Origin: an archaeon
GTDB taxonomy: Archaea > Aenigmatarchaeota > Aenigmatarchaeia > QMZP01 > JAFGSV01
Length of the DNA stretch: 64,000 nucleotides
Assembly: GCA_028279705.1 (NCBI GenBank)
Contig: JANQNF010000005.1
Span: forward strand, 2,688 to 66,687
Direction of reading: 5' to 3'
In this document: positions 2,350-46,481 of the stretch, piece after piece
How the letters are laid out: every line of letters starts with the position of its first letter
Numbering within the stretch: position 1 is the first letter of the stretch
Translations under genes and position numbers: made by a program
Notes under the pieces: model-generated
Database searches by the model: none
What the model was told of the DNA's origin: nothing
Seen by the model: only the letters and a program-made list of their open reading frames with translations

Positions 2350-4404
2350 ATGATTTCGGTTGACACGGAAACTACCGGTCTTGACTTTTATCATGGATGC
2401 GCACCGTTCCTCGTATCCATCTGTGATGAGGATCTCCAAGTTACGACATGGCAGTTTCCGGTCAACCCTCGTACTCGCATTCCCAAGGTTACTAAGCGTG
2501 ACCGGGATGAGATAGAATCCTATCTTGACCAGGACAAGGTCTTACAGAATAGTAAGTTTGACGTCCGTGCGTTACAGTCCATAGGCATCTGTATGGATTG
2601 GGACTGGGAACGCACAGAAGACACACTTATAGCAGGACACCTAGTAGCCAGTGGTGAATCCCACGAGTTGGGAAACATGGCGTTGAAGTACCTGGGAGTT
2701 GACATCAAACCGTTGGAGGAAAACCTACGGCAAGAAGTAATTAAGGCCAGAGCTCTAGCCAAGAAAAAGTATCCTGAATGGCGGCAAGCAAAGGAAGGCG
2801 ATCCGATGATGCCAAGCATGAAAGAAACTGCTTGGAAGGGGGATATGTGGTTACCTCAAGCCTTAGCAAACATGGAGGACTTACCCGAGGATCATCCTTG
2901 GTGGCATGTGCTGCCTGAGTACAACAACGGGGACAGTTCGGTAACCCTCAAATTGTGGGAAGTACAAAAAGAAATTCTACAAGAACGTGGGTTATGGGAA
3001 ATCTACCTAGAACGTAAGAAACTACTGAAGACCACCTACGATATGGAATCTATAGGGATTACCATGAACGTAGAACGGTTGAACGAACTCAATGACAGGT
3101 ATAGAGAAGAGAGTACAAAGGCTGAACAACTGTGTTTGAAACTAGCCGACGGGCACATAGATAAACTTCCAAAAGGCGGAACCAGCAAAGCTCTACGTAG
3201 TGTTATCTTCGATCACTTCAAACTACCTGTAGTAGTGAAGTCAAAGAAGACTCAGGAACCCTCAGTCAATAAAGTAGCAATAGAGCAGTGGATAGCTACT
3301 GTTCCAACAACAGAAAAGTCCTTCCATTTTATTAAAAACCTAAGGGACAAACGCAAGCGTGACACAGCCTCAGGTTATATGGAAGGTTACCTCAAAGTAG
3401 GATTACCCCTTTATGGCCCTTGGTACACTCTATTCCCCTACCTCAATATTACCGGGACTGATACCTTACGATTCAGTAGCAGCAATCCAAATGAGCAGAA
3501 TATTAGCAAACAAGAAGGGTTCAACCTCCGATACATTTTTGGTCCGCGCCCTGGAAGAGAGTGGTGGTCCGGCGATTATAAGAACATCGAGTTGCGGTTG
3601 CCAGCCTTCGAGTGCGGCGAAACTGAAATGGTCAACCTGTTCAACAATCCCGGCGAGCCACCCTATTACGGATCCTACCATTTACTTATCTGTGACGTTC
3701 TTCACCCAAAATGGTTCGGGCAACACGGAACAGACTTCAAAAACAAGTTCGCGTCGACGTGGTATCAGTGGACCAAGAATGGCAACTTTGCTGTCCAGTA
3801 TGGAGCCGTTGAATCTTCGGGTACAGCCGACTTGGCCTACCACGTTCCGGGGGCGCAAAGGAAGATTCAAGGGCGGTTCAAAAAGATCGCGCAGTTGAAT
3901 AAGGATATGATAGCTCATGCGGATGCTCACGGATATGTCACCACAATACCTTCCAAGGGTTTTGACCGCGGATACCCGTTACAATGTACACGAACCGAAT
4001 GGGGCAGAGTCAAACCAACTATCCCATTGAACTACCACGTTCAGGGAAGTGCGATGTGGGCTATGAGCTTAGCTATGAATCGATGTGACAACTTCCTAGA
4101 GCAGTGGAACCAGTCCGAGCTAGGGATAGCCAACACCAGCCAGATAATACAAGAACAGATGGAAGATCAAGCTTACTTCATGATTATGCAAATACATGAT
4201 GAGCTGGTCTTTGACTTCCCAGCCAAGCGTAGTAAGAACTGGGATCCTAAGAATCCAAAGGCTGAGCATCTAGGAAATGCACAGTTGGTACGTGAACTCA
4301 AACAACTCATGGAGCTCTCTGGAGAAGATATGAATACTCCTCTACCGGTCGGCTTCGATTATCACCCTGACACGTGGGACGTAGGCTATGGTATCAGTTT
4401 ATGA
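2350..4404 (+). CDS. Family-A (Pol I-type) DNA polymerase with 3'-5' exonuclease domain
   Basis: N-terminal Exo I motif VDTETTGL. Pol A motif B-like K..NGNFAVQYG and motif C QIHDELVFD. 684 aa. Confidence 0.85.
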   Translation: MISVDTETTGLDFYHGCAPFLVSICDEDLQVTTWQFPVNPRTRIPKVTKRDRDEIESYLDQDKVLQNSKFDVRALQSIGICMDWDWERTEDTLIAGHLVASGESHELGNMALKYLGVDIKPLEENLRQEVIKARALAKKKYPEWRQAKEGDPMMPSMKETAWKGDMWLPQALANMEDLPEDHPWWHVLPEYNNGDSSVTLKLWEVQKEILQERGLWEIYLERKKLLKTTYDMESIGITMNVERLNELNDRYREESTKAEQLCLKLADGHIDKLPKGGTSKALRSVIFDHFKLPVVVKSKKTQEPSVNKVAIEQWIATVPTTEKSFHFIKNLRDKRKRDTASGYMEGYLKVGLPLYGPWYTLFPYLNITGTDTLRFSSSNPNEQNISKQEGFNLRYIFGPRPGREWWSGDYKNIELRLPAFECGETEMVNLFNNPGEPPYYGSYHLLICDVLHPKWFGQHGTDFKNKFASTWYQWTKNGNFAVQYGAVESSGTADLAYHVPGAQRKIQGRFKKIAQLNKDMIAHADAHGYVTTIPSKGFDRGYPLQCTRTEWGRVKPTIPLNYHVQGSAMWAMSLAMNRCDNFLEQWNQSELGIANTSQIIQEQMEDQAYFMIMQIHDELVFDFPAKRSKNWDPKNPKAEHLGNAQLVRELKQLMELSGEDMNTPLPVGFDYHPDTWDVGYGISL

Positions 4405-5275
4405 TCTGGTTGAAATGAATGATAACCTTGTTAATGAATTCATCTATTGGGCAAAGGAACGTCACAGCATACACCTTAAAAGGGAAGCTGGTAAACCTAA
4501 GCCGTGGACCAAGGACCCGATACTCCAACGGTACTTCTTCACTAACCCTTACAGGGAGAATGACAAGACTACCGTATGGTTCCGGGAAACAGTACGAGAT
4601 CCAATTGCTGCCAAGCCTCAGGTCTTCTTTTCTACTGTGTGCTTCCGTTGGTTCAACTACATCCCAACAGGACAAGTACTCCATGATCTACAACTTCTGT
4701 ATGCGTGGGATTGTGAATTAGCTATTGCAAAACTGAACGACATCCTACGATCCGGGCGCAAGGTATTCACAGGGGCGTTTACCATCAGCCCTAGCGGAAG
4801 CACCAAGCCAAAGATCCAGCGTGTATGCGAAGACTACATCCAACCAGTATGGGACGACCTGTCAAGCATCGTTGGCCAACTGTACAAGGCCGACACACTG
4901 AAACGCGCATGGCAAGTTGTATCTTCTCTCCCAGGAATGGCTGGCGGAGGATTCATGGCCTATGAAGTAGTTTCAGACCTGCGGTATACTGAGTTCCTAA
5001 GAAACGCTGAAGACATCAATCTGTGGGCTAACCCCGGTCCTGGTGCCAAGCGAGGACTCAACCGTCTAATGATGAGAGAAATCAAAAGCCCAATCAACCA
5101 ACCATTGTGGGAAGACCAGACCCAGGAACTTCTTAAGATCGTTAATAAACGTCTACCCAAAAATATGCCACGGTTTGAGATGCGTGAAATTGAACACAGT
5201 CTGTGTGAGTTTGACAAGTACCTACGGGCGAGAACCAAGTCCGGCAGAATGAAAAGGAAATACGATGGTGTTTAA
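4388..5275 (+). CDS. Hypothetical protein; possible nucleotide/DNA-base modification enzyme (aGPT-Pplase-like, tentative)
   Basis: 295 aa, overlaps the polymerase stop. Motifs ILQRYFFTNPYRENDKTT, VSDLRYT and NPGPGAKRGL recall the thymine hypermodification pyrophosphorylase-like domain. Recognised from memory only. Confidence 0.45.
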   Translation: MVSVYDLVEMNDNLVNEFIYWAKERHSIHLKREAGKPKPWTKDPILQRYFFTNPYRENDKTTVWFRETVRDPIAAKPQVFFSTVCFRWFNYIPTGQVLHDLQLLYAWDCELAIAKLNDILRSGRKVFTGAFTISPSGSTKPKIQRVCEDYIQPVWDDLSSIVGQLYKADTLKRAWQVVSSLPGMAGGGFMAYEVVSDLRYTEFLRNAEDINLWANPGPGAKRGLNRLMMREIKSPINQPLWEDQTQELLKIVNKRLPKNMPRFEMREIEHSLCEFDKYLRARTKSGRMKRKYDGV

Positions 5276-5489
5276 TTGCAGGTTCCGTGAAGGTCCGTTG
5301 GATGGTAGATTAGCAGAAGTGTCCATTACTGAACCTTTCAAGGTTGGTATGTTCATCACTGTTGAAGGATGCACCTACGAAATCCTCAATGGTGCGGCTG
5401 CTCAACACCACGAGCAGAAACAAGAAGGACATCCTAACTTGGCTGTGAGTGCTAGTTATGTTGATGATAAGAACCTTTCTGGTGTCTGA
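5265..5489 (+). CDS. Hypothetical small protein
   Basis: 74-aa ORF in a co-directional array; overlaps the upstream stop. Confidence 0.3.
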   Translation: MVFNCRFREGPLDGRLAEVSITEPFKVGMFITVEGCTYEILNGAAAQHHEQKQEGHPNLAVSASYVDDKNLSGV

Positions 5490-5808
5490 TCTTCCTTTGG
5501 AGTTGTTCTGTAAGCAGTTGTGTACGTTCAATTCTAAAAAGCTAAAGAAGAGCAGGCGTCATTCTCTTTACTTGGAAAACGTGAAATGGTACAGAGAAGA
5601 CAATGGGTTATTCACAGTGACTGTGAAATTTCTCAGAGGAGAAAAATTCACTTACCGATTTATCAAGGCCGGAGGAACGTTCAGCTATTCTCCTTTCCGT
5701 GACTGCGATCACAGCAAACTGTTGAAAGTCCTAGCAGATAACCAGAGGAAGACCCGTGAAAATATTCAGGTGGAATCAAATCAGGGAAGCCGTAGCGTAT
5801 GCGGTTGA
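5449..5808 (+). CDS. Hypothetical protein
   Basis: 119-aa ORF; start uncertain (alternative ATG at 5458). Confidence 0.3.
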   Translation: MLVMLMIRTFLVSDLPLELFCKQLCTFNSKKLKKSRRHSLYLENVKWYREDNGLFTVTVKFLRGEKFTYRFIKAGGTFSYSPFRDCDHSKLLKVLADNQRKTRENIQVESNQGSRSVCG

Positions 5809-6088
5809 AGACCCTGATAACACCGCTTTGCATTTACATTACTTCATAACGCCTACAGCTCCTGCTTGCTTCAAGAGGGATGTAGGTAGGAGATTACCGA
5901 TTGCTCACTTGTTTGGACAGGACGCAAAACTATTGGAGGCAATAGCAAGACATGCTGGAGTGAACAAAATCGTTATCGAACGTACGAACACTCCTCGCCA
6001 GCACATTGATTTGTGTGGAGCTCCTTTACGTAGAGTGCTTGAGGAGTGTGGCGAGGATATAAACAACTACAGGTTGGAGGAGGACTGA
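5756..6088 (+). CDS. Hypothetical protein
   Basis: 110-aa ORF; overlaps its neighbours; stop overlaps the next start. Confidence 0.3.
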   Translation: MKIFRWNQIREAVAYAVEDPDNTALHLHYFITPTAPACFKRDVGRRLPIAHLFGQDAKLLEAIARHAGVNKIVIERTNTPRQHIDLCGAPLRRVLEECGEDINNYRLEED

Positions 6089-7221
6089 TGAAAGTAGCCA
6101 TAGTCAATTGGCCGATTAATGACGTAGGAGGCATCAACACCTACTGCGAAAACATGATAGCAGGGTTTAGAACTTTGGGAGGGTATGAAGTGGATCTAAT
6201 CCACGCCACACCACAACTCAAGTACAACAATGCGAAACATGGTGAACGGGTGAACCAGACTACCAAGCGAAGGTTCACAATCTTGGAAGGTTATCATTTC
6301 AGTTACAACGACCAGCACGTAACCGAAGCTGTAGATGCTTTGAATACTTACGATCTCGTGATATTCTTGCATCCTAGTCCACATCCTACCAAGGCTGTGA
6401 AAGAACATCCATGTCATTTGAATTGGCAAGCCTTATACAATGAGTTGACCGTTCCTGACTTGGTAATCTTCCACGACGCCAATTGGGCGAAGACGAACTC
6501 GTGGTTTGCTGACGTTGCTGACCGGGTAGATGCAGCACTAGGAGCCCAACATATATTCTTCCCAAGTATTGAGCAGTATCCAGCCAACTGCCCAAAGACC
6601 TGGGAATACTTTCCATTGAACTTAGAGCAGATGTTAAGTGACTCAGCAGAGGAGGACAAGGTAGAACAGGGGATTCTAGCTACTCAGTGGTTAAAGTGGA
6701 AGAACCATCACAAGTTCTTACCAGTCATGCCTCAGATCAAATACCCTATCATGGTGTTTGGTAGCGGTATGGAATATCACAACCTAGCCAAGACCCCGGA
6801 GTTCGCTGAGGCTTTCAACATCGACTACACAACAGACAAGGAGTACAACCCAGACTCTCCACACGAATACCATGGATACGTAGACTATGTGTACGTCATG
6901 GTGGAGATGGCTCGGTCTACCTTTAGTATCGATCTGTCAACTAAGGGTTACACGAACATGACCCATTGGGAGCCGATGGCCTGCGAGACCCTTAATTTAA
7001 TCCACGAAGATGTACTTGCTAACGAGTACTGTGAGATCCCAGACGATTGTTGTATGACATTCAACTTTGGGAATGTTGCCGACGTCATCAACGAAACGAT
7101 GGAAAATCCTGACTGGATTGACAAGCGTGTTACCAACGCTTCCAAGTTCATTACTAAGTGTGACAACGTTCAGGTTGTCAGCCGTATCATGTCCTGGTTA
7201 AAGAAAGAAGGTGTTGTATGA
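6088..7221 (+). CDS. GT-B fold glycosyltransferase; candidate DNA (hydroxymethyl-pyrimidine) glucosyltransferase
   Basis: RBS GGAGGAGG then ATG at 6088. The N-terminus MKVAIVNWPINDVGGINTY...GGYEVDLIHA is a typical GT-B Rossmann start and resembles the T4 alpha-glucosyltransferase N-terminus (MRICIFMARGLEGCGVTKF...GHEVTLVYA). Confidence 0.5.
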   Translation: MKVAIVNWPINDVGGINTYCENMIAGFRTLGGYEVDLIHATPQLKYNNAKHGERVNQTTKRRFTILEGYHFSYNDQHVTEAVDALNTYDLVIFLHPSPHPTKAVKEHPCHLNWQALYNELTVPDLVIFHDANWAKTNSWFADVADRVDAALGAQHIFFPSIEQYPANCPKTWEYFPLNLEQMLSDSAEEDKVEQGILATQWLKWKNHHKFLPVMPQIKYPIMVFGSGMEYHNLAKTPEFAEAFNIDYTTDKEYNPDSPHEYHGYVDYVYVMVEMARSTFSIDLSTKGYTNMTHWEPMACETLNLIHEDVLANEYCEIPDDCCMTFNFGNVADVINETMENPDWIDKRVTNASKFITKCDNVQVVSRIMSWLKKEGVV

Positions 7222-7622
7222 CTCACTATCATGTTACAAGCCTAATCCTAGGAGCGATTCTCACTGTTGGGATTTTCACAGGCTGTTGTGAACAGACTAA
7301 GATGGAACGTTCCCTCGAATACGAAGAAGGGATCAAAAGTCACAACACAGGTATGTCACTTCACGAGAATCCTTACAGCGATGCTGTTGGGAGAAAGGAA
7401 CGGGAACATAAAGCTTACTGGACAAACGGTTGGCTGGACGCCGAGCTCGAAGAACAAGAACACGACGAAGAGTACGAGTCAGAAAGAAACGTAGCTATCC
7501 TCGCTACCATACGTTTGAAACGGTTGGAGAAAGCAGAAGAACGTATTGAAGAGTTGGAAGCCCGTATCAACACTATGCAAGCGTTACAGGAGGAGTTCTA
7601 TGCAACGTTCCGTAACCGTTGA
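7218..7622 (+). CDS. Hypothetical protein, possible lipoprotein with C-terminal coiled coil
   Basis: MTHYHVTSLILGAILTVGIFTGCC has a signal-like segment with Cys. C-terminal acidic coiled coil. Confidence 0.45.
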   Translation: MTHYHVTSLILGAILTVGIFTGCCEQTKMERSLEYEEGIKSHNTGMSLHENPYSDAVGRKEREHKAYWTNGWLDAELEEQEHDEEYESERNVAILATIRLKRLEKAEERIEELEARINTMQALQEEFYATFRNR

Positions 7623-7797
7623 TTATATGTACGATGACAACGAGTGTGATCTTTTTGACAAACTCAAAGAAGTATTGGCAAGCATCGGAGTGGAGGTCGA
7701 GATGGTTGACCCCGATCCACCAGATCTGGAATCGTTAACCATGGAATTCACAAACACACTAGTCGAGGACAACCAGCAGATCGAGCCAGTCGGATGA
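7600..7797 (+). CDS. Hypothetical small acidic protein
   Basis: RBS AGGAGG 7 nt upstream of ATG 7600. 65 aa. Stop overlaps the next start. Confidence 0.35.
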   Translation: MQRSVTVDYMYDDNECDLFDKLKEVLASIGVEVEMVDPDPPDLESLTMEFTNTLVEDNQQIEPVG

Positions 7798-8690
7798 GAT
7801 TATTCAACACCCTATCCTTGGAAATCAACGCACAGTGTAATCGCAAGTGCAAGTTCTGTCCTGTAGCTTACAACACTAGACCTGATGAACGGATGGCTAT
7901 CGGGTTGGTCAACAAAGCAGCAGCGGAGCTTGCTCACCTTAACTACAAAGGGAGGATCGAACTCTACATATACAACGAACCGCTCAAGGACAAAACCTAT
8001 CTGCGACAAGTCACAAAGCTGTTGCGCAAGCACGTCCCTAAGTGTACTCTGATGATTGCCACTAACGGTGACTACATCCGGGACTACACAGACATCATGG
8101 AGATGTATGAGTGGGGGATGAACCAAGTCCTCATTAACTGCTACAGTCCTGGTCTGTATGAACGCCGACAAGTATGGTTCAGTGGATTACCTGCTGAAGT
8201 ACGTAGACACAAGAGCGTGTACGACCAAGGCTTCAAAGGCAAGTGCATACAGATGCTAGACAAGTCTTCTCCCCAGAAGTTTGGTACGGGAATCTTTTCC
8301 TTGACAAACCGTGCAGGTAATATAGACCAGTTCTTACCTGTAGTAGAAGAACCTTTGCAGAAGATGTGTGTGCGCCCGTTCAGGTTACTTAACATTAACT
8401 GGCTTGGACAAGCCTTAGTGTGCTGCCAAGATTACCACGCAGACGTTCCTATCGGGAATTTACAGGACAACACATTAGTAGAACTCTGGAATCATCCGGT
8501 GCTCAATACCTACCGAAAGCATTTATCCGAGAAGGACAGAACTTTACCTCTGTGCAACCAGTGCGACTGTCACTCCGGTGCGTATCCGGGAAATGTGGAC
8601 AAGAGTTTTGGAAAACCAGCCAGTCGCCATGAAATTGCTAACATCCATGCGACCAACGTAAGGAGAAGAAATCGTGCATCTAAAGTTTAG
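7794..8690 (+). CDS. Radical SAM enzyme with C-terminal SPASM/twitch-like Cys cluster
   Basis: CNRKCKFC (CxxxCxxC) at residues 15-22. C-terminal CCQDY...CNQCDC cluster. Start overlaps the upstream stop. Confidence 0.7.
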   Translation: MRLFNTLSLEINAQCNRKCKFCPVAYNTRPDERMAIGLVNKAAAELAHLNYKGRIELYIYNEPLKDKTYLRQVTKLLRKHVPKCTLMIATNGDYIRDYTDIMEMYEWGMNQVLINCYSPGLYERRQVWFSGLPAEVRRHKSVYDQGFKGKCIQMLDKSSPQKFGTGIFSLTNRAGNIDQFLPVVEEPLQKMCVRPFRLLNINWLGQALVCCQDYHADVPIGNLQDNTLVELWNHPVLNTYRKHLSEKDRTLPLCNQCDCHSGAYPGNVDKSFGKPASRHEIANIHATNVRRRNRASKV

Positions 8691-9825
8691 AAACGTTAAC
8701 GAAGCTTTTGATTTCATACTCAAGGGAGTCACAGACGGTAGTATTCCAACGATCGATTCAGGGTCTAGAAACGGAGATGTTGTTCAGATCCCTGAAGTAT
8801 TGACGATCACCTACCTACGTCCTTGGGAGCGAGTTCTGTTTAACAGCGGAAGGGATTGCAATCCGTTCTTTCACCTGTACGAAGCTATGTGGATGCTTGC
8901 CGGTCGGGAGGACGTAGCGTCGCTTGAGTACTTCAACAGCCAGATGGCTCAGTACAGTGACGATGGTAAAGTATTCAACGGTGCTTACGGTAACCGATGG
9001 CGCAACTGGAAAGTACCAAGATGGACTCAAGGACATAATATGTCCGATCCGGACCTACTCTATTGGGAAGGAATAGACCAACTAGAAGTCATTGCGAAGA
9101 ATCTGACCCGGGATAATAACAGCCGACGAGAGGTTCTAGAGATGTGGAGCGTTCACAGCGACCTCCTACGCAACCGTAGTAGTAAGGATGTCTGCTGTAA
9201 CCTTGTAGTCACGTTCCAGATCGTTGATGCGTTCGGGGCTAAGAAGTTGGACATGTCCGTGTTCAATCGTAGCAACGATACGATCTGGGGACTGCTCGGT
9301 GCCAACGTAGTACATTTCAGCTTTCTGCACGAGTGGATGGCTTCTATGTGTGGGGTCAAGATGGGCTTGTACAACCAGATCAGTGTCAATGCGCACTTCT
9401 ACGCTGACAAGTTCACACCCGAAAAATGGATTGGGGATACGACGCCGGATTTGTATCTGGATGCTCTTCCAATAAACCTCACACCCCTTATTGAGGATAA
9501 GAACCAGTGGGAGCGGGACGTACTGACGTTCTGTGAAAATCCATACAACTCAGACAACCCTGAACTGCCGTTCACCCGTAGTCTGAGTAAGAAGTTGTTG
9601 TACGACGAACCGTTCTTTACCAAGGTTGCTATTCCTGCTTGTAAAGCATTCCATGCGCACAAGAATCGGAAGTATGAAGATGCTTTCCGGTTTGCTTCAA
9701 CCATCGAATCAACAGATTGGCAGTTCGTGTGCACAGAATGGTTGATGAAGCGGGAAAGATGGTACAAAGAAAGGATCCGTAAGTCCGGCAACCCATACGC
9801 TAAACTTTCACAACAAGATCAATGA
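8674..9825 (+). CDS. Thymidylate synthase-family enzyme, probably a deoxypyrimidylate hydroxymethylase or methylase, with a ~120-aa C-terminal extension
   Basis: FHLYEAMWMLAG, NGAYGNRWRNW and VCCNLVVTFQ align with ThyA motifs ELLWFLKG, GPVYGKQWRAW and PCHAFFQFYV. The conserved substrate Asn is present in GLLGANVV. 383 aa versus ~264 for ThyA. Confidence 0.8.
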   Translation: MHLKFRNVNEAFDFILKGVTDGSIPTIDSGSRNGDVVQIPEVLTITYLRPWERVLFNSGRDCNPFFHLYEAMWMLAGREDVASLEYFNSQMAQYSDDGKVFNGAYGNRWRNWKVPRWTQGHNMSDPDLLYWEGIDQLEVIAKNLTRDNNSRREVLEMWSVHSDLLRNRSSKDVCCNLVVTFQIVDAFGAKKLDMSVFNRSNDTIWGLLGANVVHFSFLHEWMASMCGVKMGLYNQISVNAHFYADKFTPEKWIGDTTPDLYLDALPINLTPLIEDKNQWERDVLTFCENPYNSDNPELPFTRSLSKKLLYDEPFFTKVAIPACKAFHAHKNRKYEDAFRFASTIESTDWQFVCTEWLMKRERWYKERIRKSGNPYAKLSQQDQ

Positions 9826-10060
9826 GATGATTATCTTCTTGATAGTAATCTGTTGCCAGCTTGCAATAATCGCTTACTTGTTATACGAGATTGATAAATC
9901 AATAAACAGTAAACCCTGAGAGGATGAATAATGCCCTTAACCTCGGACCAGCAACGGGAATCTAAAGCCAAACTCGAAGTCTGGCAAGAACTTTCCAAAG
10001 CTTTGAAGAATCTCAACAAATTCCTAGACCTACTTATCAAAGAAGCGGAGAAGAAAGCTA

Positions 10061-11098
10061 ATGACAACTAGAACCGAACCAGACCTGCGACACCTAGACT
10101 TCCTAGAAAGGGTAGCAGGGCTCGACGTGAACCAAGTTGAAGAGAAGGACCGCAGCTACGGAGGTAGTTGGAAGCGTCGTGGCGGAGTCGGCGTCTTTAT
10201 GATGCTTGCTCGCAAGTGGGACCGGCTTGAAAACATGATGGCCAATCCTCAGGCTCTGGTAGCTGGTCCTAAACATCCAACCAAAGAACAAGGCGAACAC
10301 GAGTGCTTCCTATGGGACAAGTACGATATCATAGGGGCCATAGAATCCCAGATCACTAGAGGTCAAGTTCCTGGTGATGCCCCAGACGGTACGGTCCTGG
10401 CCGAAGTCCGCGACCTGCGCCGTTACCTGTTACTGTTGGAGGCCGAGCTACTCAGCCGCGACCATACTCAAAACGCCAATCCCCATGTCGTTCGAGCTAT
10501 GGAAAGATTAGAAAAGGAAGGCACTGTTGTAGGGGAGGATGCTGTCACCCTGATGCAAAGTCAAGCTGTTGGGAGAAGGGTAGAAGCAGTTCAAGCTTCA
10601 GGATCTAGAACCCATCAGACTGATCATCAATATCGGGTTCAGCAATTCATGGAAAAAGCAGGTCAGGAGATTCCTGACCAACCTACCATCCCTGACTTCG
10701 AAGTACGCAAGCTACGTGCAAGGCTGATCTTCGAAGAAGCAATGGAAACCATTGAGGCGATGGGAATTTCCATACGCCATCACATAGTCCACTCTAATAA
10801 CGAGATTTGGTTGGACTCATTCCATAGCACCTACCGGGTCGAGTTTCTCAATAAGGGGGAATGCGTTATCGAGGACGTTGCCGACGGTTGTGCGGATCTG
10901 TCTGTTGTCAACGAAGGTACGTTACTGGCCTTCGGTATCCGGGACAACCCACTACTACAAGAAGTGGACGAAGCCAACCTACGCAAGTTCCGGGGGGATG
11001 CTCACAGGGACGAAGGGGGTAAGTGGATCAAGCCTTCGGACTGGCAACCACCTAACATCGCCAAAGTATTGGAGGACCAAGGATATGACCCTACCTGA
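10061..11098 (+). CDS. Tandem MazG-like all-alpha NTP pyrophosphohydrolase
   Basis: Two MazG-like segments (SYGGSWKRRGGVGVFMMLARKWDRLE; EVRKLRARLIFEEAMETIEAM...EDVADGCADLSVV with the E..AD..L signature). Confidence 0.55.
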   Translation: MTTRTEPDLRHLDFLERVAGLDVNQVEEKDRSYGGSWKRRGGVGVFMMLARKWDRLENMMANPQALVAGPKHPTKEQGEHECFLWDKYDIIGAIESQITRGQVPGDAPDGTVLAEVRDLRRYLLLLEAELLSRDHTQNANPHVVRAMERLEKEGTVVGEDAVTLMQSQAVGRRVEAVQASGSRTHQTDHQYRVQQFMEKAGQEIPDQPTIPDFEVRKLRARLIFEEAMETIEAMGISIRHHIVHSNNEIWLDSFHSTYRVEFLNKGECVIEDVADGCADLSVVNEGTLLAFGIRDNPLLQEVDEANLRKFRGDAHRDEGGKWIKPSDWQPPNIAKVLEDQGYDPT

Positions 11099-14139: not shown

Positions 14140-14598
14140 ATGGATAGCTTTCACGGTCTTAACGGGTTCAAGTTGGATTACTATCCGGCGTTTCAACCAC
14201 AGCAATATGCAAACTACACCCCTTCCTCAGCCTCATCTAGTGAGTTCTATGAATCGATGGAGAAGGCTAGAAGACGTATGCAAGAGTTGAAAGCAGGTGA
14301 GAGATACTACATTGAGAGCCACTGCTTCATGCTTCTTAATGAATCTACTATGAGATCCTGGCAGCTACGCATCCATCATCTTACACCAGAACCTAGATGT
14401 GCCTGTCCATTTAATTTCCTGAACGAATACGACAGATGGTTCGAGTGGCAGAAGTTGGTTCAGTTTGAAAGGATGAACACCTTGGAAGCAGCAGTTAAGG
14501 TGACCGGAGTTACCAGGATCTGGGTTATCGAACCTCCCAGGTTCGATCCCCTGTCCGTGATGAGACAACCTTTATGGAGCCCTAAGAATGATGACTGA
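14140..14598 (+). CDS. Hypothetical protein
   Basis: 152-aa ORF; ATGA overlap with the next gene. Confidence 0.45.
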   Translation: MDSFHGLNGFKLDYYPAFQPQQYANYTPSSASSSEFYESMEKARRRMQELKAGERYYIESHCFMLLNESTMRSWQLRIHHLTPEPRCACPFNFLNEYDRWFEWQKLVQFERMNTLEAAVKVTGVTRIWVIEPPRFDPLSVMRQPLWSPKNDD

Positions 14599-15082
14599 CT
14601 GTGAAATCCTTGCAGTCACTGGTCACAGACCTCCAAAGCTAGGGGGGTATGATCTTCTCCTATTTGATTGCCTAGTGCGCTTTGCTGTTACAGAACTCAA
14701 GCAAATCCAACCAGAGTACGTCCTTACAGGTATGGCGTTAGGTTGGGACCAAGCAATAGCGGAAGCCTGTGACAGGATTGGTATCCCGTTCATAGCCTGC
14801 TTACCGCACGACAATCCAGGAAGTAACTGGCCAGACCATAGCCGTGAGTACCTAGACCAGTTACTGAACAAAGCACATGACATCTGGTGGTGTCCGGGAG
14901 GACCGTACGAACCACAGAAGATGCAGATACGTAACGAAACAATGGTGGATGAGTGTGACACGTTGCTTGCCCTGTACGACGGAGAGCCACAAGGCGGAAC
15001 TCATAACTGTGTGAACTACGCACAAATGGAAAGCAACTGCCTAATCATCAACTGTTGGGAACGATGGGAACCCTTTATCTAA
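14588..15082 (+). CDS. SLOG-superfamily Rossmann protein (YpsA/DUF1273- or DprA-like)
   Basis: N-terminal ILAVTGHRPPKLGGYD matches the YpsA-type start (vTGyr..eLgif). A glycine-rich turn MALGWDQAIAEA follows. Confidence 0.4.
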   Translation: MMTDCEILAVTGHRPPKLGGYDLLLFDCLVRFAVTELKQIQPEYVLTGMALGWDQAIAEACDRIGIPFIACLPHDNPGSNWPDHSREYLDQLLNKAHDIWWCPGGPYEPQKMQIRNETMVDECDTLLALYDGEPQGGTHNCVNYAQMESNCLIINCWERWEPFI

Positions 15083-15102: not shown

Positions 15103-15552
15103 ATGGGAATGATAACCGTGAGACTACCCGATACCAAGCACGAAGGTATCAAACTGGCAGCGGAGGACGCTGGCCTAAGTATGAATACTTGGTGCGTTCA
15201 AAAACTCTGCCAAGCCGCAGGAAAGTTTGTGCCTCCTGAACCCCAAGAGATCATTCTAGAAGGTGGTCCTCTGCACAACACTCTTCACCAGACCGAAGAC
15301 ATTGTCACTCATCTGGTACTAGACGAACCAGATCACTTGTACCAATTGAGGGCTGATGAAATTGCTAAGATCAGTCCCGTCCCACCGTTACGAAACCAGT
15401 ACACCTACAAAAGAAGTGGAGAACGCAAGCACAGGTATCCAGCAGAAGGTACAAGAGTTCTAACCCCCATTTTCAAATTCATCTCAGTGAACGTTATTAC
15501 CAATGATGCAGATCTTTCCCCACAAAGTAGTGAACAAGATTCACTGCGGTAA
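15103..15552 (+). CDS. Ribbon-helix-helix (HicB/Arc-like) DNA-binding protein with C-terminal extension
   Basis: RBS GAGGAA then ATG 15103. ITVRLPDTKHEGIKLAAEDAGLSMNTWCVQKL is an RHH signature. Confidence 0.5.
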   Translation: MGMITVRLPDTKHEGIKLAAEDAGLSMNTWCVQKLCQAAGKFVPPEPQEIILEGGPLHNTLHQTEDIVTHLVLDEPDHLYQLRADEIAKISPVPPLRNQYTYKRSGERKHRYPAEGTRVLTPIFKFISVNVITNDADLSPQSSEQDSLR

Positions 15553-16363
15553 CTGTGCCCACGTACTCCGTAAGATGGTCCCAGACCAAGTCATTGATCT
15601 CACAGTCACCAGCCCACCGTATGACGATCTCCGTGCTTACGAGGGGTTCAAGTTTGACTGGCGTAGTATCATCAAGCAACTATGGCGAATTACCAAGATC
15701 GGCGGAGTTGTGGTCTGGGTCGTGGCTGATCAAGTAGAAGACGGTAGTGAGACTGGAACCAGTTTCCAACAAGCTATCTTCTTCCAAGCTGTAGGCTTCA
15801 GACTCCACGACACTATGATCTATCGTCGGGCTCCCAGGTTCCCAGACGTTATCCGCTATCCTCAGTGGTTTGAGTATATGTTCGTGTTCAGTAAGGGACC
15901 ACCCAAAACGTTCAATCCTATTTGTGACCGCAAGAACACTACAGCCGGGACTAAGGGAGGCAACAGACGCCGCGATCCTAAGACCGGTGAAGTTGTAGGC
16001 ACAGGCCAAGAGAAGAACGTTCGTAAGGACTACGGAGCACGTGAGAATATATGGACTTACCTAGCAGGTAGTGCCGAGAGTGAAGACCTGGGACATCCAG
16101 CTAAGTTCCCTGATCAGCTTGCTATGGATCACATCCTAAGCTGGTCTGATCCTGGCGACCTTGTCCTAGATCCTATGTGTGGTAGCGGCACGACCTGTGC
16201 TATGGCCAAGAAAGCCGGGCGCGAATACGTAGGTATTGACATTAGTGAGAACTACTGCCAGATTGCTCGTGGTACAGTGGAGTCTCACCAACTAGCTGCC
16301 GAGTTCGAGACCGGCACACCTTCCTCCCAGAGAAAGCCAATAGGCGGAAAAGGATTACTATGA
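15503..16363 (+). CDS. Beta-class DNA methyltransferase (N6-adenine or N4-cytosine)
   Basis: Motif IV DLTVTSPPY precedes motif I DPMCGSGTT (permuted beta-class order). Confidence 0.8.
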   Translation: MMQIFPHKVVNKIHCGNCAHVLRKMVPDQVIDLTVTSPPYDDLRAYEGFKFDWRSIIKQLWRITKIGGVVVWVVADQVEDGSETGTSFQQAIFFQAVGFRLHDTMIYRRAPRFPDVIRYPQWFEYMFVFSKGPPKTFNPICDRKNTTAGTKGGNRRRDPKTGEVVGTGQEKNVRKDYGARENIWTYLAGSAESEDLGHPAKFPDQLAMDHILSWSDPGDLVLDPMCGSGTTCAMAKKAGREYVGIDISENYCQIARGTVESHQLAAEFETGTPSSQRKPIGGKGLL

Positions 16364-44898: not shown

Positions 44899-45459
44899 GT
44901 GAGAAATCTGTTTGTTGCGATTATCGCAAGTTTGATGTTCGTTCCGTGTGTAAGCGGTCAAGATGATCTACTGGCAAAAGAACTCGACAGTATTGAAGCT
45001 CAATACAACGAGAGCCAGGAACAGTCCAAGGAAGATAACTCAACCCTCAAGAAAGTCAGTACACCAATCCCACAGGAGGAAGCCGCTCAAGGTACGTTCC
45101 ACCGTACTGTGATCAAAGCAGCTAGGAACAAAGTCAAGTCCGGCGAACTCAGCCGACGGGACTTCATGCGCCTTCGTATTGCCATGATGTCTCCGGCCTT
45201 CCGGGCGCACGCGGAAGACTTTGCCGTCATCCAAATGGCGTTTTCCGATTCGGAGAATGTTCCTGTTACAGAAGACGGTGGAGTTGACCGGACTGCAATT
45301 GACTGGGACGCAATTATTGCGTTCATTGAGAAGTTGATCCCACTGCTGATTCAGATCATCGACATATTTTCACAGATGGGAATGGACACGTCCCACCTGT
45401 ATGACACGCTTCATGCTTGTCTTTTCACTTTGGATCACGCTAAGGCACAGCAAGGATGA
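44899..45459 (+). CDS. Secreted hypothetical protein (GTG start)
   Basis: Signal peptide MRNLFVAIIASLMFVPCVSG. RBS GGAAGGAG. Confidence 0.5.
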   Translation: MRNLFVAIIASLMFVPCVSGQDDLLAKELDSIEAQYNESQEQSKEDNSTLKKVSTPIPQEEAAQGTFHRTVIKAARNKVKSGELSRRDFMRLRIAMMSPAFRAHAEDFAVIQMAFSDSENVPVTEDGGVDRTAIDWDAIIAFIEKLIPLLIQIIDIFSQMGMDTSHLYDTLHACLFTLDHAKAQQG

Positions 45460-46481
45460 TCATCATGTGTAACGAACGTTTAACAATTGAGGAGCTCACA
45501 CAAGACCAGCTCCTACGTGTAAGAACGTGGGAAGACCAGTCTGGTGTACAGGTCCTGGAACTTGAGCGCAACGAAAATGATAAGCTCAGACCTACCCTTA
45601 TCAACGGAAGACAAGTTGATCGTGACGGGTGGCGCGAGGTTGTCAGAATCGGTAATCGTTCTTGCACAGGAACTATTGTCGGCCGGAATGCAGTAATCAC
45701 TGCTGCTCATTGTGGTCGTAATAACAGCCGGAGCACTCTAGAAGTGTTCAAGGACGGTTCACTAGTCCGGTACAACTACCGAATGTTCCATCATCCCCGT
45801 TATCGTGGGCAATCGAACTGGGACATTGCAGTGTTAGCGCTGGACAACGATATCGAGGACGTCTTCTACGCGATTGCTGGAGTCAACTACAACTTCAGGC
45901 AAGGAGCAGAAGTTGACATTCTCGGTTACGGGTGTACGCGACCAGGAGGTGGAGGAGGAAACGATGGCATCCTTCGCTTCGGTGAATCACGAGTTGTGAA
46001 TTTCACTGGAACGGATGTTATCACATCCCACCGTCCTAGCGGAGCGGCTCTTTGCTTTGGTGACAGCGGTGGTCCAATGTTCGCGGACACGTCCGACGCT
46101 TCATTGGAAGACCACAATACGCTAATTGCGGTCAACAGCAAAGGTAACATCCGTGACACGAACTACAATCTACGGCTAGACTATGATGGTGTCGGTGAAT
46201 GGTTGGAGTCAATTGCGAATGCCCGTGATCTGGAAATCTACGGGGTCAATGCTCAACCTGATGAGCCAGATCCCAACCCGGATCCAGACCCAGATCCTGA
46301 TCCAAACCCAGATCCACAGGACCCGTGCGAAGTCTGGGCTCAACTCGCCAAGCAACACCGGGAAACTGCTTTGTACTGGGAGCGTCAAGCTGAGAAGTAC
46401 GAACAGATGTCCGGCAATGGTTGCGGCGGCGACAAACCAAATCCACCGAACGATCCAAGTGATGATCTGTTCGGGCTTTAA
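45456..46481 (+). CDS. Trypsin-like (S1 family) serine protease with C-terminal Pro-Asp-rich linker
   Basis: His motif TAAHCG, Ser motif GDSGGPMF, then a PDEPDPNPDPDPDPDPNPDP run. Ends in DDLFGL. Confidence 0.75.
   Translation: MIIMCNERLTIEELTQDQLLRVRTWEDQSGVQVLELERNENDKLRPTLINGRQVDRDGWREVVRIGNRSCTGTIVGRNAVITAAHCGRNNSRSTLEVFKDGSLVRYNYRMFHHPRYRGQSNWDIAVLALDNDIEDVFYAIAGVNYNFRQGAEVDILGYGCTRPGGGGGNDGILRFGESRVVNFTGTDVITSHRPSGAALCFGDSGGPMFADTSDASLEDHNTLIAVNSKGNIRDTNYNLRLDYDGVGEWLESIANARDLEIYGVNAQPDEPDPNPDPDPDPDPNPDPQDPCEVWAQLAKQHRETALYWERQAEKYEQMSGNGCGGDKPNPPNDPSDDLFGL

What the first reader, a model, noticed from the sequence alone, without database searches (positions are those of the whole stretch)
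6088..7221. GT-B glycosyltransferase with T4 alpha-glucosyltransferase-like N-terminus inside the nucleotide-metabolism module
The first 45 residues follow the GT-B pattern and align by eye with the N-terminus of T4 a-gt (MRICIFMARGLEGCGVTKF...GHEVTLVYA versus MKVAIVNWPINDVGGINTY...GGYEVDLIHA). The gene sits between the polymerase and the TS homolog rather than in the structural module. A DNA hydroxymethyl-base glycosyltransferase role is plausible.
Basis: inference. Interest (0 to 1): 0.6.

Follow-up and report, generated by a model that had tools for sequence, protein, structure and literature searches.

The report
Phage DNA sugar-adding enzyme, T4-AGT-like
This gene encodes a previously unannotated enzyme whose closest known relative is the phage T4 enzyme that attaches glucose to DNA; it sits in a conserved phage gene cluster that most likely adds a sugar to a modified thymine (5-hydroxymethyluracil) and then oxidises that sugar, without the kinase that all known pathways of this type depend on.

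Summary
T4 DNA alpha-glucosyltransferase (AGT) is its best solved-structure match by Foldseek (E 7e-14) and by profile searches (hmmsearch E 2.5e-12; hhalign 96.8%). GT4 enzymes score only slightly lower. It has no Pfam, PHROG or NCBIfam hit, no cultured-phage homolog, and 46 unannotated metagenomic relatives.

Its gene neighbours are conserved. A PF18723 gene lies nearby on the same strand in 21 of 26 related loci. Pfam calls PF18723 'HMUDK_hel', but it is not the kinase. It is the uncharacterised 'clade 1' paralog of the amino-acid:DNA transferase and keeps that enzyme's catalytic Cys motif. A BtrN-like radical-SAM dehydrogenase follows the GT in 10 loci, and a uracil-type thymidylate-synthase homolog is nearby. 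The proven P-loop 5-hmdU kinase and the amino-acid:DNA transferase have no detectable homolog in about 99% of the genome or in any related locus. In sister phages the same slot holds a divergent GT-B or a GT-A (TAGT).

Best reading: the enzyme glycosylates 5-hmU in phage DNA and the sugar is then oxidised. This would be a kinase-independent variant of thymidine hypermodification. Function is inferred, not shown.

The parts
6088..7221 (+). AGT-like GT-B glycosyltransferase (377 aa), the finding itself. Residues conserved across the broad family: G14, G15, D130, K205, E295. Additional invariants of the core family: H99, H129, N137, W139, Q154, Q200, W201, H207, D282, N290, H293.
4388..5275 (+). 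PF18723 protein (Pfam 'HMUDK_hel', formerly aGPT-Pplase clade 1). All-helical, basic, with an invariant E269-H270-x-x-C273-E274 motif. Conserved partner of the GT. It is not the P-loop kinase.
7794..8690 (+). BtrN-like radical SAM/SPASM enzyme. CX3CX2C motif at C15/C19/C22, and auxiliary-cluster cysteines are aligned. Predicted dehydrogenase acting on the appended sugar.
   Evidence: next to the GT in 10 of 26 loci
8674..9825 (+). Thymidylate-synthase homolog of the dUMP hydroxymethylase type. The catalytic Cys and the uracil-specifying Asn are conserved.
10061..11098 (+). MazG/PRA-PH-like nucleotide pyrophosphohydrolase. Likely clears competing dNTPs (inferred).
2350..4404 (+). Family A DNA polymerase with a 3'-5' exonuclease domain, at the head of the conserved backbone PolA-PF18723-GT-rSAM-TS.
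7218..7622 (+). 134-aa ORF translationally coupled to the GT (ATGA overlap). No homologs in related loci. Function unknown.
5265..6088 (+). Small ORFs between PF18723 and the GT (74 aa at 5265-5489 and 110 aa at 5756-6088). Not conserved, no family hits. In 12 related loci PF18723 abuts the GT directly.

Best explanation
The gene encodes a retaining-type GT-B glycosyltransferase from a phage-restricted, unannotated family whose nearest characterised relative is T4 DNA alpha-glucosyltransferase. The proposed pathway has four steps. (1) The TS homolog makes 5-hydroxymethyl-dUMP, the MazG-like enzyme removes competing nucleotides, and the phage PolA incorporates 5-hmdU into DNA. This step is inferred from homology to M6/PaMx11/PhiJL001-type modules. 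(2) After replication, the GT binds a host NDP-hexose in its C-terminal Rossmann domain through K205 and E295, with H129-D130 and the G14-G15 loop at the domain cleft. It transfers the sugar to the 5-hydroxymethyl group of a flipped-out hmU, as AGT does for hmC. This step is inferred from fold, aligned catalytic residues and context. (3) The BtrN-like radical SAM enzyme oxidises a secondary hydroxyl of the attached sugar to a ketone (inferred). (4) The PF18723 protein keeps the Glu/Cys motif of the C6-attacking amino-acid:DNA transferase and acts on the same base in the same pathway. Its step is unresolved. No phosphorylation of hmU is involved, because no kinase is encoded.
For: Fold: high-confidence GT-B model.
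Nearest relatives: T4 AGT-DNA complexes are the top 7 Foldseek PDB hits. AGT is the top hit of the 92-sequence profile at E 2.5e-12 over residues 15-360, and hhalign gives 96.8% probability at E 2.2e-10 over 322 columns.
Aligned residues: FH129-D130 pairs with AGT QHD; W204-K205 with AGT W-K in TTWKG; T-H293-W-E295 with AGT T-H-L-E. D130, K205, E295 and G14-G15 are at least 90% conserved across the broad family. Family members give weak hits to both GT4 half-domains.
Viral neighbours: an SP-15 glycosyltransferase (TM 0.73) and proteins annotated as DNA alpha-GT.
Context: PF18723 is on the same strand in 21 of 26 loci and abuts the GT in 12. Three of the five exceptions are contigs that begin at the GT. 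The rSAM's best PDB hit is BtrN at E 1.8e-22 across both Fe-S motifs. The TS homolog is of the uracil type.
Slot swapping: on the same PolA-PF18723-[slot]-rSAM-TS backbone, the slot holds a TAGT (GT-A) in L039 and a divergent GT-B in L040. TAGT is adjacent in L004, L007 and L027. A slot that always holds a glycosyltransferase argues that sugar transfer is the conserved function.
No kinase or AADT: jackhmmer or phmmer searches with PaMx11 gp49 and gp46 found nothing in the window, the 9.85 kb upstream of it, the related loci or PhiJL001. The positive controls scored. The only Walker A motifs in this genome belong to the UvrD helicase and the AAA_24 protein.
Against: No biochemical data exist, and the phage is uncultured.
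The preference for AGT over GT4 enzymes is modest.
The window protein alone, and its close-family profile, find nothing significant in PDB sequences or Pfam.
The Arg of the usual Arg/Lys diphosphate-binding pair appears to be replaced by invariant Gln200. This rests on an ungapped reading of the motif; the tool alignments place gaps differently. The first Glu of the GT4 EX7E motif is Gly287.
The window protein is strongly acidic (pI 5.1, net charge -21), which is unusual for a DNA enzyme. The family median pI is 8.85 and AGT itself has pI 6.05.
T4 AGT, BGT and JGT need no helper protein, so the tight PF18723 linkage is not explained by simple glycosylation.
No model coordinates were available, so a DNA groove and the surface electrostatics could not be examined.
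The searches for the kinase and for AADT used single-sequence seeds and Pfam, so a very divergent or non-P-loop kinase cannot be excluded.
Confidence: 0.6

Rival explanations
1. The GT acts second, not first. PF18723, a Cys-dependent paralog of the amino-acid:DNA transferase, first attaches a hydroxyl-bearing small molecule to the C5-methylene of hmU. The GT then glycosylates that appendage rather than the hydroxymethyl group itself.
For: PF18723 keeps the E-x-x-x-C catalytic motif of PaMx11 gp46 in 25 of 25 sequences. gp46 is its only structural neighbour in the PDB. PF18723 lies upstream of the GT in 19 of 21 loci.
Against: Known transferases of this type need phosphate as the leaving group (Lee 2021, Wen 2024), and no kinase is present. 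The clade 1 paralog was dispensable for group transfer in vitro. AGT-like enzymes accommodate hmU or hmC directly (PDB 1y8z).
Confidence: 0.12
2. Glycosyl transfer takes the place of phosphorylation as the activating step. The GT loads a sugar, or a sugar-derived group, onto hmU. PF18723 then attacks C6 and displaces or rearranges that group, possibly after the rSAM has oxidised it, to give a different final base.
For: The kinase and AADT are absent while PF18723, with an intact catalytic motif, is strictly retained and translationally coupled to the GT. The Arg-to-Gln change at the diphosphate site and the many core-family-specific invariant His, Asn, Gln and Trp residues hint at atypical substrate handling. 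The M6 precedent shows an rSAM enzyme rearranging a C5 appendage.
Against: A glycoside is a much poorer leaving group than phosphate. There is no precedent. The GT slot is interchangeable between GT-B and GT-A enzymes, which fits ordinary glycosylation better. This reading is purely inferential.
Confidence: 0.1
3. It is an ordinary GT4-type glycosyltransferase acting on a non-DNA acceptor, such as a host envelope glycan, a lipid or a phage protein, and only happens to lie in the replication module.
For: GT4 enzymes (PimA, SPS, HepE, MshA, BshA) score almost as well as AGT. The family gives weak Pfam hits to GT4/GT1 domains. The window protein is acidic. The genome also encodes a separate GT2-domain protein.
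Against: The GT keeps same-strand, often overlapping linkage to PF18723 across relatives with only 32-61% identity, together with a TS homolog and PolA. PF18723 is known only from thymidine-hypermodification clusters. The slot also swaps with TAGT, a DNA-GT family. There are no envelope or polysaccharide genes nearby, and none of the Pfam scans or called-gene tables showed a signal peptide or membrane domain.
Confidence: 0.08
4. It glucosylates 5-hydroxymethylcytosine, as T4 AGT does.
For: The closest characterised relative acts on hmC.
Against: The only TS-family enzyme keeps the uracil-specifying Asn and aligns end to end with the PaMx11 and PhiJL001 dUMP-hydroxymethylase-type enzymes. No dCMP hydroxymethylase or TET/5mYOX homolog was found. 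PF18723 belongs to thymidine pathways.
Confidence: 0.03

Closest known systems
T4 DNA alpha-glucosyltransferase (AGT; CAZy GT72; PDB 1xv5, 1y6f, 1y8z)
   Same: GT-B fold. It is the best structural and profile match. The H-D, W-K and T-H-x-E motifs align. It is a phage enzyme encoded outside the structural module, and AGT has been crystallised with HMU-containing DNA.
   Different: Sequence identity is only 13-14%, and the match is undetectable by pairwise or close-family searches. The likely acceptor is hmU rather than hmC. Gln stands in place of AGT's Arg in the GRxxxWK motif. It has obligate-looking partners (PF18723, rSAM) that T4 lacks.
GT4 retaining glycosyltransferases (PimA, MshA, BshA, sucrose-phosphate synthase, HepE)
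   Same: Same fold, nearly equal structural scores, a conserved Lys and the second Glu of the EX7E region, and weak Pfam hits to Glyco_transf_4 and Glycos_transf_1 in many family members.
   Different: The window protein fails every Pfam GT4 threshold. The first EX7E Glu is Gly287. The genomic context concerns DNA-base modification, not glycan or lipid synthesis.
Thymidine hypermodification clusters of M6, PaMx11, ViI and PhiW-14 (Lee et al. 2018, 2021; Wen et al. 2024)
   Same: The same replication-module backbone: PolA, a TS-type dUMP hydroxymethylase, a nucleotide pyrophosphatase and a PF18723 paralog about 40% identical to PaMx11 gp50. An rSAM tailoring enzyme follows the group-transfer enzyme.
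   Different: It lacks the two proven core enzymes, P-loop 5-HMUDK and the amino-acid:DNA transferase (PF18724). A glycosyltransferase is present instead. The rSAM is BtrN-like rather than spore-photoproduct-lyase-like.
Alphaproteobacteria phage PhiJL001 (Keylargovirus), gp19-gp24
   Same: A cultured phage with the closest cultured PF18723 (41% identity), followed by a glycosyltransferase and the TS homolog. No kinase or AADT homolog was detected genome-wide.
   Different: Its GT is a TAGT (GT-A, E 2.7e-53), not the AGT-like GT-B. It has Nmad5 rather than the rSAM. Its DNA modification has not been reported in the papers searched.
Phage 5mYOX/ThyS-associated DNA glycosyltransferases (Pyle et al. 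2023/2024) and trypanosome base J glucosyltransferase
   Same: The concept of post-replicative sugar transfer to a 5-hydroxymethylpyrimidine in DNA. GT-containing clusters were reported next to ThyS.
   Different: Their GT-B enzymes resemble T4 beta-GT, and their GT-A enzymes resemble JGT or TarP. The text makes no mention of Pplase, PF18723 or radical SAM, and contains no 'AGT' or 'alpha-glucosyltransferase'.

Membership tests
GT-B fold glycosyltransferase superfamily | Two Rossmann-like beta/alpha/beta domains with an inter-domain cleft | tested here: met
   AF2 model with pLDDT 95.5 and alternating strand/helix elements in two halves. 315 PDB matches at E<=1e-3; the listed top hits are GT-B enzymes.
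GT-B fold glycosyltransferase superfamily | Nucleotide-sugar binding residues in the C-terminal domain (a Lys at the diphosphate, a Glu at the ribose or sugar) | tested here: met
   K205 and E295 are at least 90% conserved over 92 sequences. They align with the AGT Lys in TTWKG and the Glu in THLE. Binding itself was not tested.
CAZy GT72 (T4 AGT family) | Significant sequence similarity to T4 AGT | tested here: inconclusive
   Broad profile: hmmsearch E 2.5e-12 and hhalign 96.8%. Close-family profile: hhalign 61%, and no PDB hit by hmmsearch. Pairwise BLASTP E 0.37 with 13-14% identity.
CAZy GT72 (T4 AGT family) | Arg/Lys pair of the GRxxxWKG motif | tested here: not met
   The Lys is present (K205). 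Counting back five residues from K205, the Arg position is invariant Q200. This is an ungapped reading by eye; the tool alignments place gaps differently.
CAZy GT72 (T4 AGT family) | UDP-glucose:5-hmC-DNA alpha-glucosyltransferase activity | not testable with these tools
   Context predicts hmU, not hmC. The donor is unknown.
GT4 (Pfam Glyco_transf_4 + Glycos_transf_1) | Passes the Pfam gathering thresholds for the GT4 N- and C-terminal domains | tested here: not met
   The window protein's best hit is Glyco_trans_1_2 at E 0.085, 13.2 bits against a cutoff of 25. Weak hits occur in 25 of 46 and 17 of 46 relatives.
GT4 (Pfam Glyco_transf_4 + Glycos_transf_1) | EX7E motif | tested here: not met
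   The second Glu is E295. The position eight residues before it is the nearly invariant G287.
Thymidine hypermodification system (Lee et al.) | dUMP hydroxymethylase-type TS homolog | tested here: met
   phrog_5131 at E 2.8e-94. Catalytic Cys and uracil-specifying Asn are conserved. It aligns with PaMx11 gp51 and PhiJL001 gp24. Hydroxymethylase versus methylase activity was not tested.
Thymidine hypermodification system (Lee et al.) | P-loop 5-hmdU DNA kinase (M6 gp54 / PaMx11 gp49 type) | tested here: not met
   No jackhmmer, phmmer or Pfam hit in the window, the 9.85 kb upstream of it or the related loci. The only Walker A motifs are in UvrD and AAA_24. The positive control was found.
Thymidine hypermodification system (Lee et al.) | Amino-acid:DNA transferase (PF18724, aGPT-Pplase2) | tested here: not met
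   No PF18724 hit among the window ORFs scanned. No jackhmmer or phmmer hit to gp46. The control, PaMx11 gp46, scores 1.6e-27.
Thymidine hypermodification system (Lee et al.) | PF18723 (clade 1 Pplase / 'HMUDK_hel') paralog | tested here: met
   window:4388-5275 scores E 9.4e-51 and is 40% identical to PaMx11 gp50.
BtrN-type radical SAM dehydrogenase (for the neighbour at 7794-8690) | CX3CX2C radical SAM cluster plus a C-terminal auxiliary 4Fe-4S (twitch/SPASM) domain | tested here: met
   C15/C19/C22. The alignment to BtrN covers residues 2-258, including auxiliary cysteines (C192, C209/C210, C253, C256). E 1.8e-22; Pfam SPASM 8e-12. The substrate was not tested.

The most novel reading that the evidence does not exclude
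These phages have a kinase-independent route of thymidine hypermodification. An AGT-like glycosyltransferase, not 5-HMUDK, performs the first post-replicative step on 5-hmU. The long-unexplained clade 1 Pplase (PF18723, which keeps the C6-attacking Cys) then works on the glycosylated base. With the BtrN-like radical SAM dehydrogenase, this would yield a keto-sugar or rearranged (possibly C-C linked) sugar-thymine adduct not yet seen in any DNA. It would also give PF18723 its first assigned function.
Probability: 0.15. Interest if true: 0.85.

Novelty: new variant of a known kind. Interest (0 to 1): 0.62.

Why it matters
Sugar-modified and hypermodified bases let phages evade restriction enzymes and CRISPR, and they supply enzymes for DNA labelling. 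Every thymidine hypermodification pathway worked out so far starts with a P-loop kinase and an amino-acid:DNA transferase. This cluster keeps the same replication-module backbone and the unexplained PF18723 paralog. It replaces both core enzymes with a T4-AGT-like glycosyltransferase and a sugar-type radical SAM dehydrogenase. If the prediction holds, it defines a second entry point into hmU hypermodification. It would add an AGT-like enzyme family that acts on hmU, giving an alpha-linked counterpart of base J if the retaining chemistry inferred from AGT holds. [quoted passage not shown] It also shows that the Pfam name 'HMUDK_hel' can lead annotators to infer a kinase where there is none.

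Tried and rejected
1. I first read window:4388-5275 as the 5-hmdU DNA kinase because of its Pfam name, and built kinase-plus-GT hypotheses on that (glycosylation of 5-PmdU, or the GT replacing the Pplase). I rejected these after finding that PaMx11 splits the proven P-loop kinase (gp49) from the PF18723 protein (gp50), and that no kinase homolog or Walker A candidate exists here.
2. Direct searches with the window protein found nothing: megablast and tblastn against GenBank phages, Pfam, PHROGs and NCBIfam, PDB phmmer and the close-family profile against PDB.
4. IMG/VR gave only 5 loci and GTDB genomes only 2 MAG contigs, both phage-like.
5. Literature searches for HMUDK plus glycosyltransferase returned nothing. 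The Iyer et al. 2013 paper is not held. Searches on PhiJL001 and on base J in phages found no relevant characterisation.
6. The hhalign comparison of PF18723 with gp46 is not significant overall (0.7%, 17 columns). I use it only as a motif-level observation supported by the Foldseek match.
7. The c21 downstream family gave no Pfam or PDB hit.
8. Neither a complex prediction of GT with PF18723 nor an electrostatic analysis could be run.
Full report
**Observation.** window:6088-7221(+) is a genuine gene of 377 aa starting at ATG 6088. A GGAGGAGG ribosome-binding site lies 6-8 nt upstream. The start overlaps the upstream stop (TGATG) and the stop overlaps the next start (ATGA), so the gene is translationally coupled within a + strand operon. 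An independent gene call on the matching public contig uses the same boundaries. The gene lies between a family A DNA polymerase (2350-4404) and a thymidylate-synthase homolog (8674-9825). The portal, capsid-like and protease genes lie at about 39-63 kb.

**Is it a GT-B enzyme, and is it AGT-like?** The protein alone matches nothing in Pfam, PHROGs, NCBIfam, PDB sequences or GenBank phages. It has 46 homolog clusters in metagenomes at 32-61% identity, all unannotated, with strongly conserved motifs. An AlphaFold model built on that alignment is very confident (pLDDT 95.5, pTM 0.92).

- Foldseek against the PDB ranks seven T4 alpha-glucosyltransferase-DNA complexes first (E 7e-14 to 3e-12, TMq 0.68-0.72). 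GT4 enzymes follow from E 1.2e-11.
- Among viral models, the neighbours include an SP-15 glycosyltransferase (TM 0.73) and proteins annotated as DNA alpha-GT.
- An exhaustive profile search found 278 related 50%-identity clusters. A 92-sequence profile that includes distant members has T4 AGT as its best PDB hit (E 2.5e-12, residues 15-360 against 16-394). GT4 enzymes come next, starting at E 3.7e-10.
- hhalign of the same profile against AGT gives 96.8% probability over 322 columns.

These alignments pair H129-D130 with AGT's QHD, W204-K205 with AGT's W-K, and T-H293-W-E295 with AGT's T-H-L-E. D130, K205, E295 and G14-G15 are the residues that stay at least 90% conserved across the broad family.

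The family differs from AGT and GT4 in two ways. It has Gln200 where the diphosphate-binding Arg is expected, on an ungapped reading of the motif. It has Gly287 at the first EX7E position. I therefore call it AGT-like and do not file it as a member of GT72 or GT4.

**Context, and a correction.** I first took the neighbour at 4388-5275 (Pfam PF18723, 'HMUDK_hel', E 9e-51) for the 5-hmdU DNA kinase. It is not. In PaMx11 the proven kinase is the P-loop protein gp49 and the PF18723 protein is the separate gp50. The proven group-transfer enzyme is gp46 (PF18724).

- Searches seeded with gp49 and gp46 find nothing in the window, the 9.85 kb upstream of it (together about 99% of the genome), the related loci or the whole PhiJL001 genome. 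The positive controls score strongly.
- The only Walker A motifs in this genome belong to a UvrD helicase and an AAA_24 protein.
- PF18724 did not appear in any Pfam scan of the window's ORFs.

**PF18723.** It corresponds to the 'clade 1' aGPT-Pplase paralog. Its role was never established, and it was dispensable for group transfer in vitro. Its model is all-helical (pLDDT 94.2). Its only meaningful PDB neighbour is PaMx11 gp46 (probability 0.98, but TM only 0.42). A short local alignment pairs gp46's metal ligands and catalytic nucleophile, E243-T244-x-x-C247 (Wen 2024), with PF18723's E269-H270-x-x-C273. C273, E274 and K277 are conserved in 25 of 25 PF18723 sequences, including kinase-associated PaMx11 gp50. 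PF18723 is therefore probably an enzyme that attacks C6 of a 5-substituted uracil. This is inference.

**Conservation of the cluster.** I clustered the ORFs of 26 distinct loci that carry a relative of the GT.

- PF18723 is present on the same strand in 21 loci and abuts the GT (within about 50 nt) in 12.
- Three of the five exceptions are contigs that begin at the GT. The other two belong to a divergent subgroup at 32% identity.
- A radical SAM/SPASM gene is adjacent to the GT in 10 loci.
- A TS homolog was detected in 11 loci.

The window's rSAM enzyme is clearly BtrN-like. It scores E 1.8e-22 over residues 2-258, has the CX3CX2C motif, and has aligned auxiliary-cluster cysteines. BtrN is a radical SAM dehydrogenase that oxidises a secondary alcohol on an aminocyclitol (my own knowledge of the enzyme). 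This is independent support that a sugar is installed.

The TS homolog keeps the catalytic Cys and the uracil-specifying Asn, and aligns end to end with the PaMx11 and PhiJL001 enzymes. The expected acceptor is therefore hmU.

The closest PF18723 relatives (58% identity) share the backbone PolA-PF18723-[slot]-rSAM-TS. The slot holds a TAGT (GT-A) in L039 and a divergent member of the broad AGT-like family in L040. TAGT is also adjacent to the GT in L004, L007 and L027. The cultured phage PhiJL001 has PF18723, TAGT, Nmad5 and TS. A slot that always contains a glycosyltransferase, of either fold, argues that glycosyl transfer is the conserved function there.

**Mechanism.** Most likely (0.6): the phage replaces T with 5-hmdU before replication. 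The GT then transfers a hexose from a host NDP-sugar to the hydroxymethyl group of flipped-out hmU. The BtrN-like enzyme oxidises the sugar, and PF18723 acts at an unresolved step.

The rival explanations are:

- PF18723 acts first and the GT decorates its product (0.12).
- Glycosylation substitutes for phosphorylation as activation for PF18723 chemistry (0.10).
- The acceptor is not DNA (0.08).
- The acceptor is hmC (0.03).

Points against the main reading:

- The margin of AGT over GT4 enzymes is small.
- The window protein is acidic (pI 5.1, net -21), against a family median pI of 8.85.
- The need for PF18723 is unexplained.
- There is no biochemistry.

**Novelty.** Phage GTs clustered with ThyS are a known concept (Pyle et al.). 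AGT is a textbook enzyme. Thymidine hypermodification through 5-HMUDK and a Pplase is well described. I found no description of three things: this AGT-like family, its linkage to PF18723 and a BtrN-like rSAM, and the absence of the kinase and AADT. I rate it a new variant of a known kind.

Noticed in passing
window 4388-5275: Pfam names this family 'HMUDK_hel' (5-hmdU DNA kinase, helical domain). Here and in about 21 related loci it occurs with no kinase at all. It carries an invariant E-H-x-L-C-E motif matching the catalytic motif of the amino-acid:DNA transferase. The name invites mis-annotation as a kinase.
   Followed up: yes
window 7794-8690: Radical SAM/SPASM enzyme with BtrN as a clear best PDB match (E 1.8e-22). 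It is adjacent to the GT in 10 loci. It may be a DNA-sugar dehydrogenase, which I have not seen described.
   Followed up: partly
window 6088-7221 versus alignment A1: The window's GT is the most acidic member of its family (pI 5.10, net charge -21; family median pI 8.85). Its PF18723 neighbour is basic (pI 9.35, +9.8). This may hint at a complex.
   Followed up: no
L006:11137-11982, L017:7457-8401, L028:7022-7795, L018: A conserved family of about 260-315 aa lies directly downstream of the GT in a second cluster architecture. It has no Pfam or PDB hit. An N-terminal R-R/T-G-x-x-H..W motif is reminiscent of a sulfotransferase or P-loop-like phosphate-binding loop.
   Followed up: partly
L039:6132-7864; L031:7605-9999: Two tandem PF18723 genes. 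In L039 they are followed by TAGT and an rSAM/SPASM gene.
   Followed up: no
L035 (PhiJL001) 6992-10841: The cultured phage PhiJL001 has PF18723 (gp19), a strong TAGT (gp22, E 2.7e-53), Nmad5 (gp23) and a TS homolog (gp24). No kinase or AADT homolog was detected genome-wide. It is a tractable test case whose DNA modification seems unreported.
   Followed up: partly
L043:1-277 (about 10 kb upstream of window position 1): A 688-aa protein with a Glycos_transf_2 (GT-A) domain is encoded elsewhere in the same genome. Its target is unknown.
   Followed up: no
L043:7013-7573 and L040:675-1265: A uracil-DNA glycosylase family gene (PF03167) is encoded by phages predicted to carry hmU-derived bases.
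   Followed up: no
L043:9811-10014; L002:2885-3061; L004:5036-5239: A phage-encoded CsrA homolog is conserved next to the AAA_24 or replication genes in several of these phages.
   Followed up: no
L007:16432-19524: A portal protein gene interrupted by an intein with a LAGLIDADG homing endonuclease domain.
   Followed up: no
L036:837-6156: A distant AGT-like GT (E 1.7e-46 to the family profile) is followed by a SAM methyltransferase, a DUF2284 protein and a TS homolog, with no PF18723. This may be another sugar-tailoring variant.
   Followed up: no
window 14588-15082, 15503-16363, 45456-46481: A YpsA/SLOG-family protein, an N6/N4 DNA methyltransferase, and a trypsin-like protease in the structural module.
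   Followed up: no
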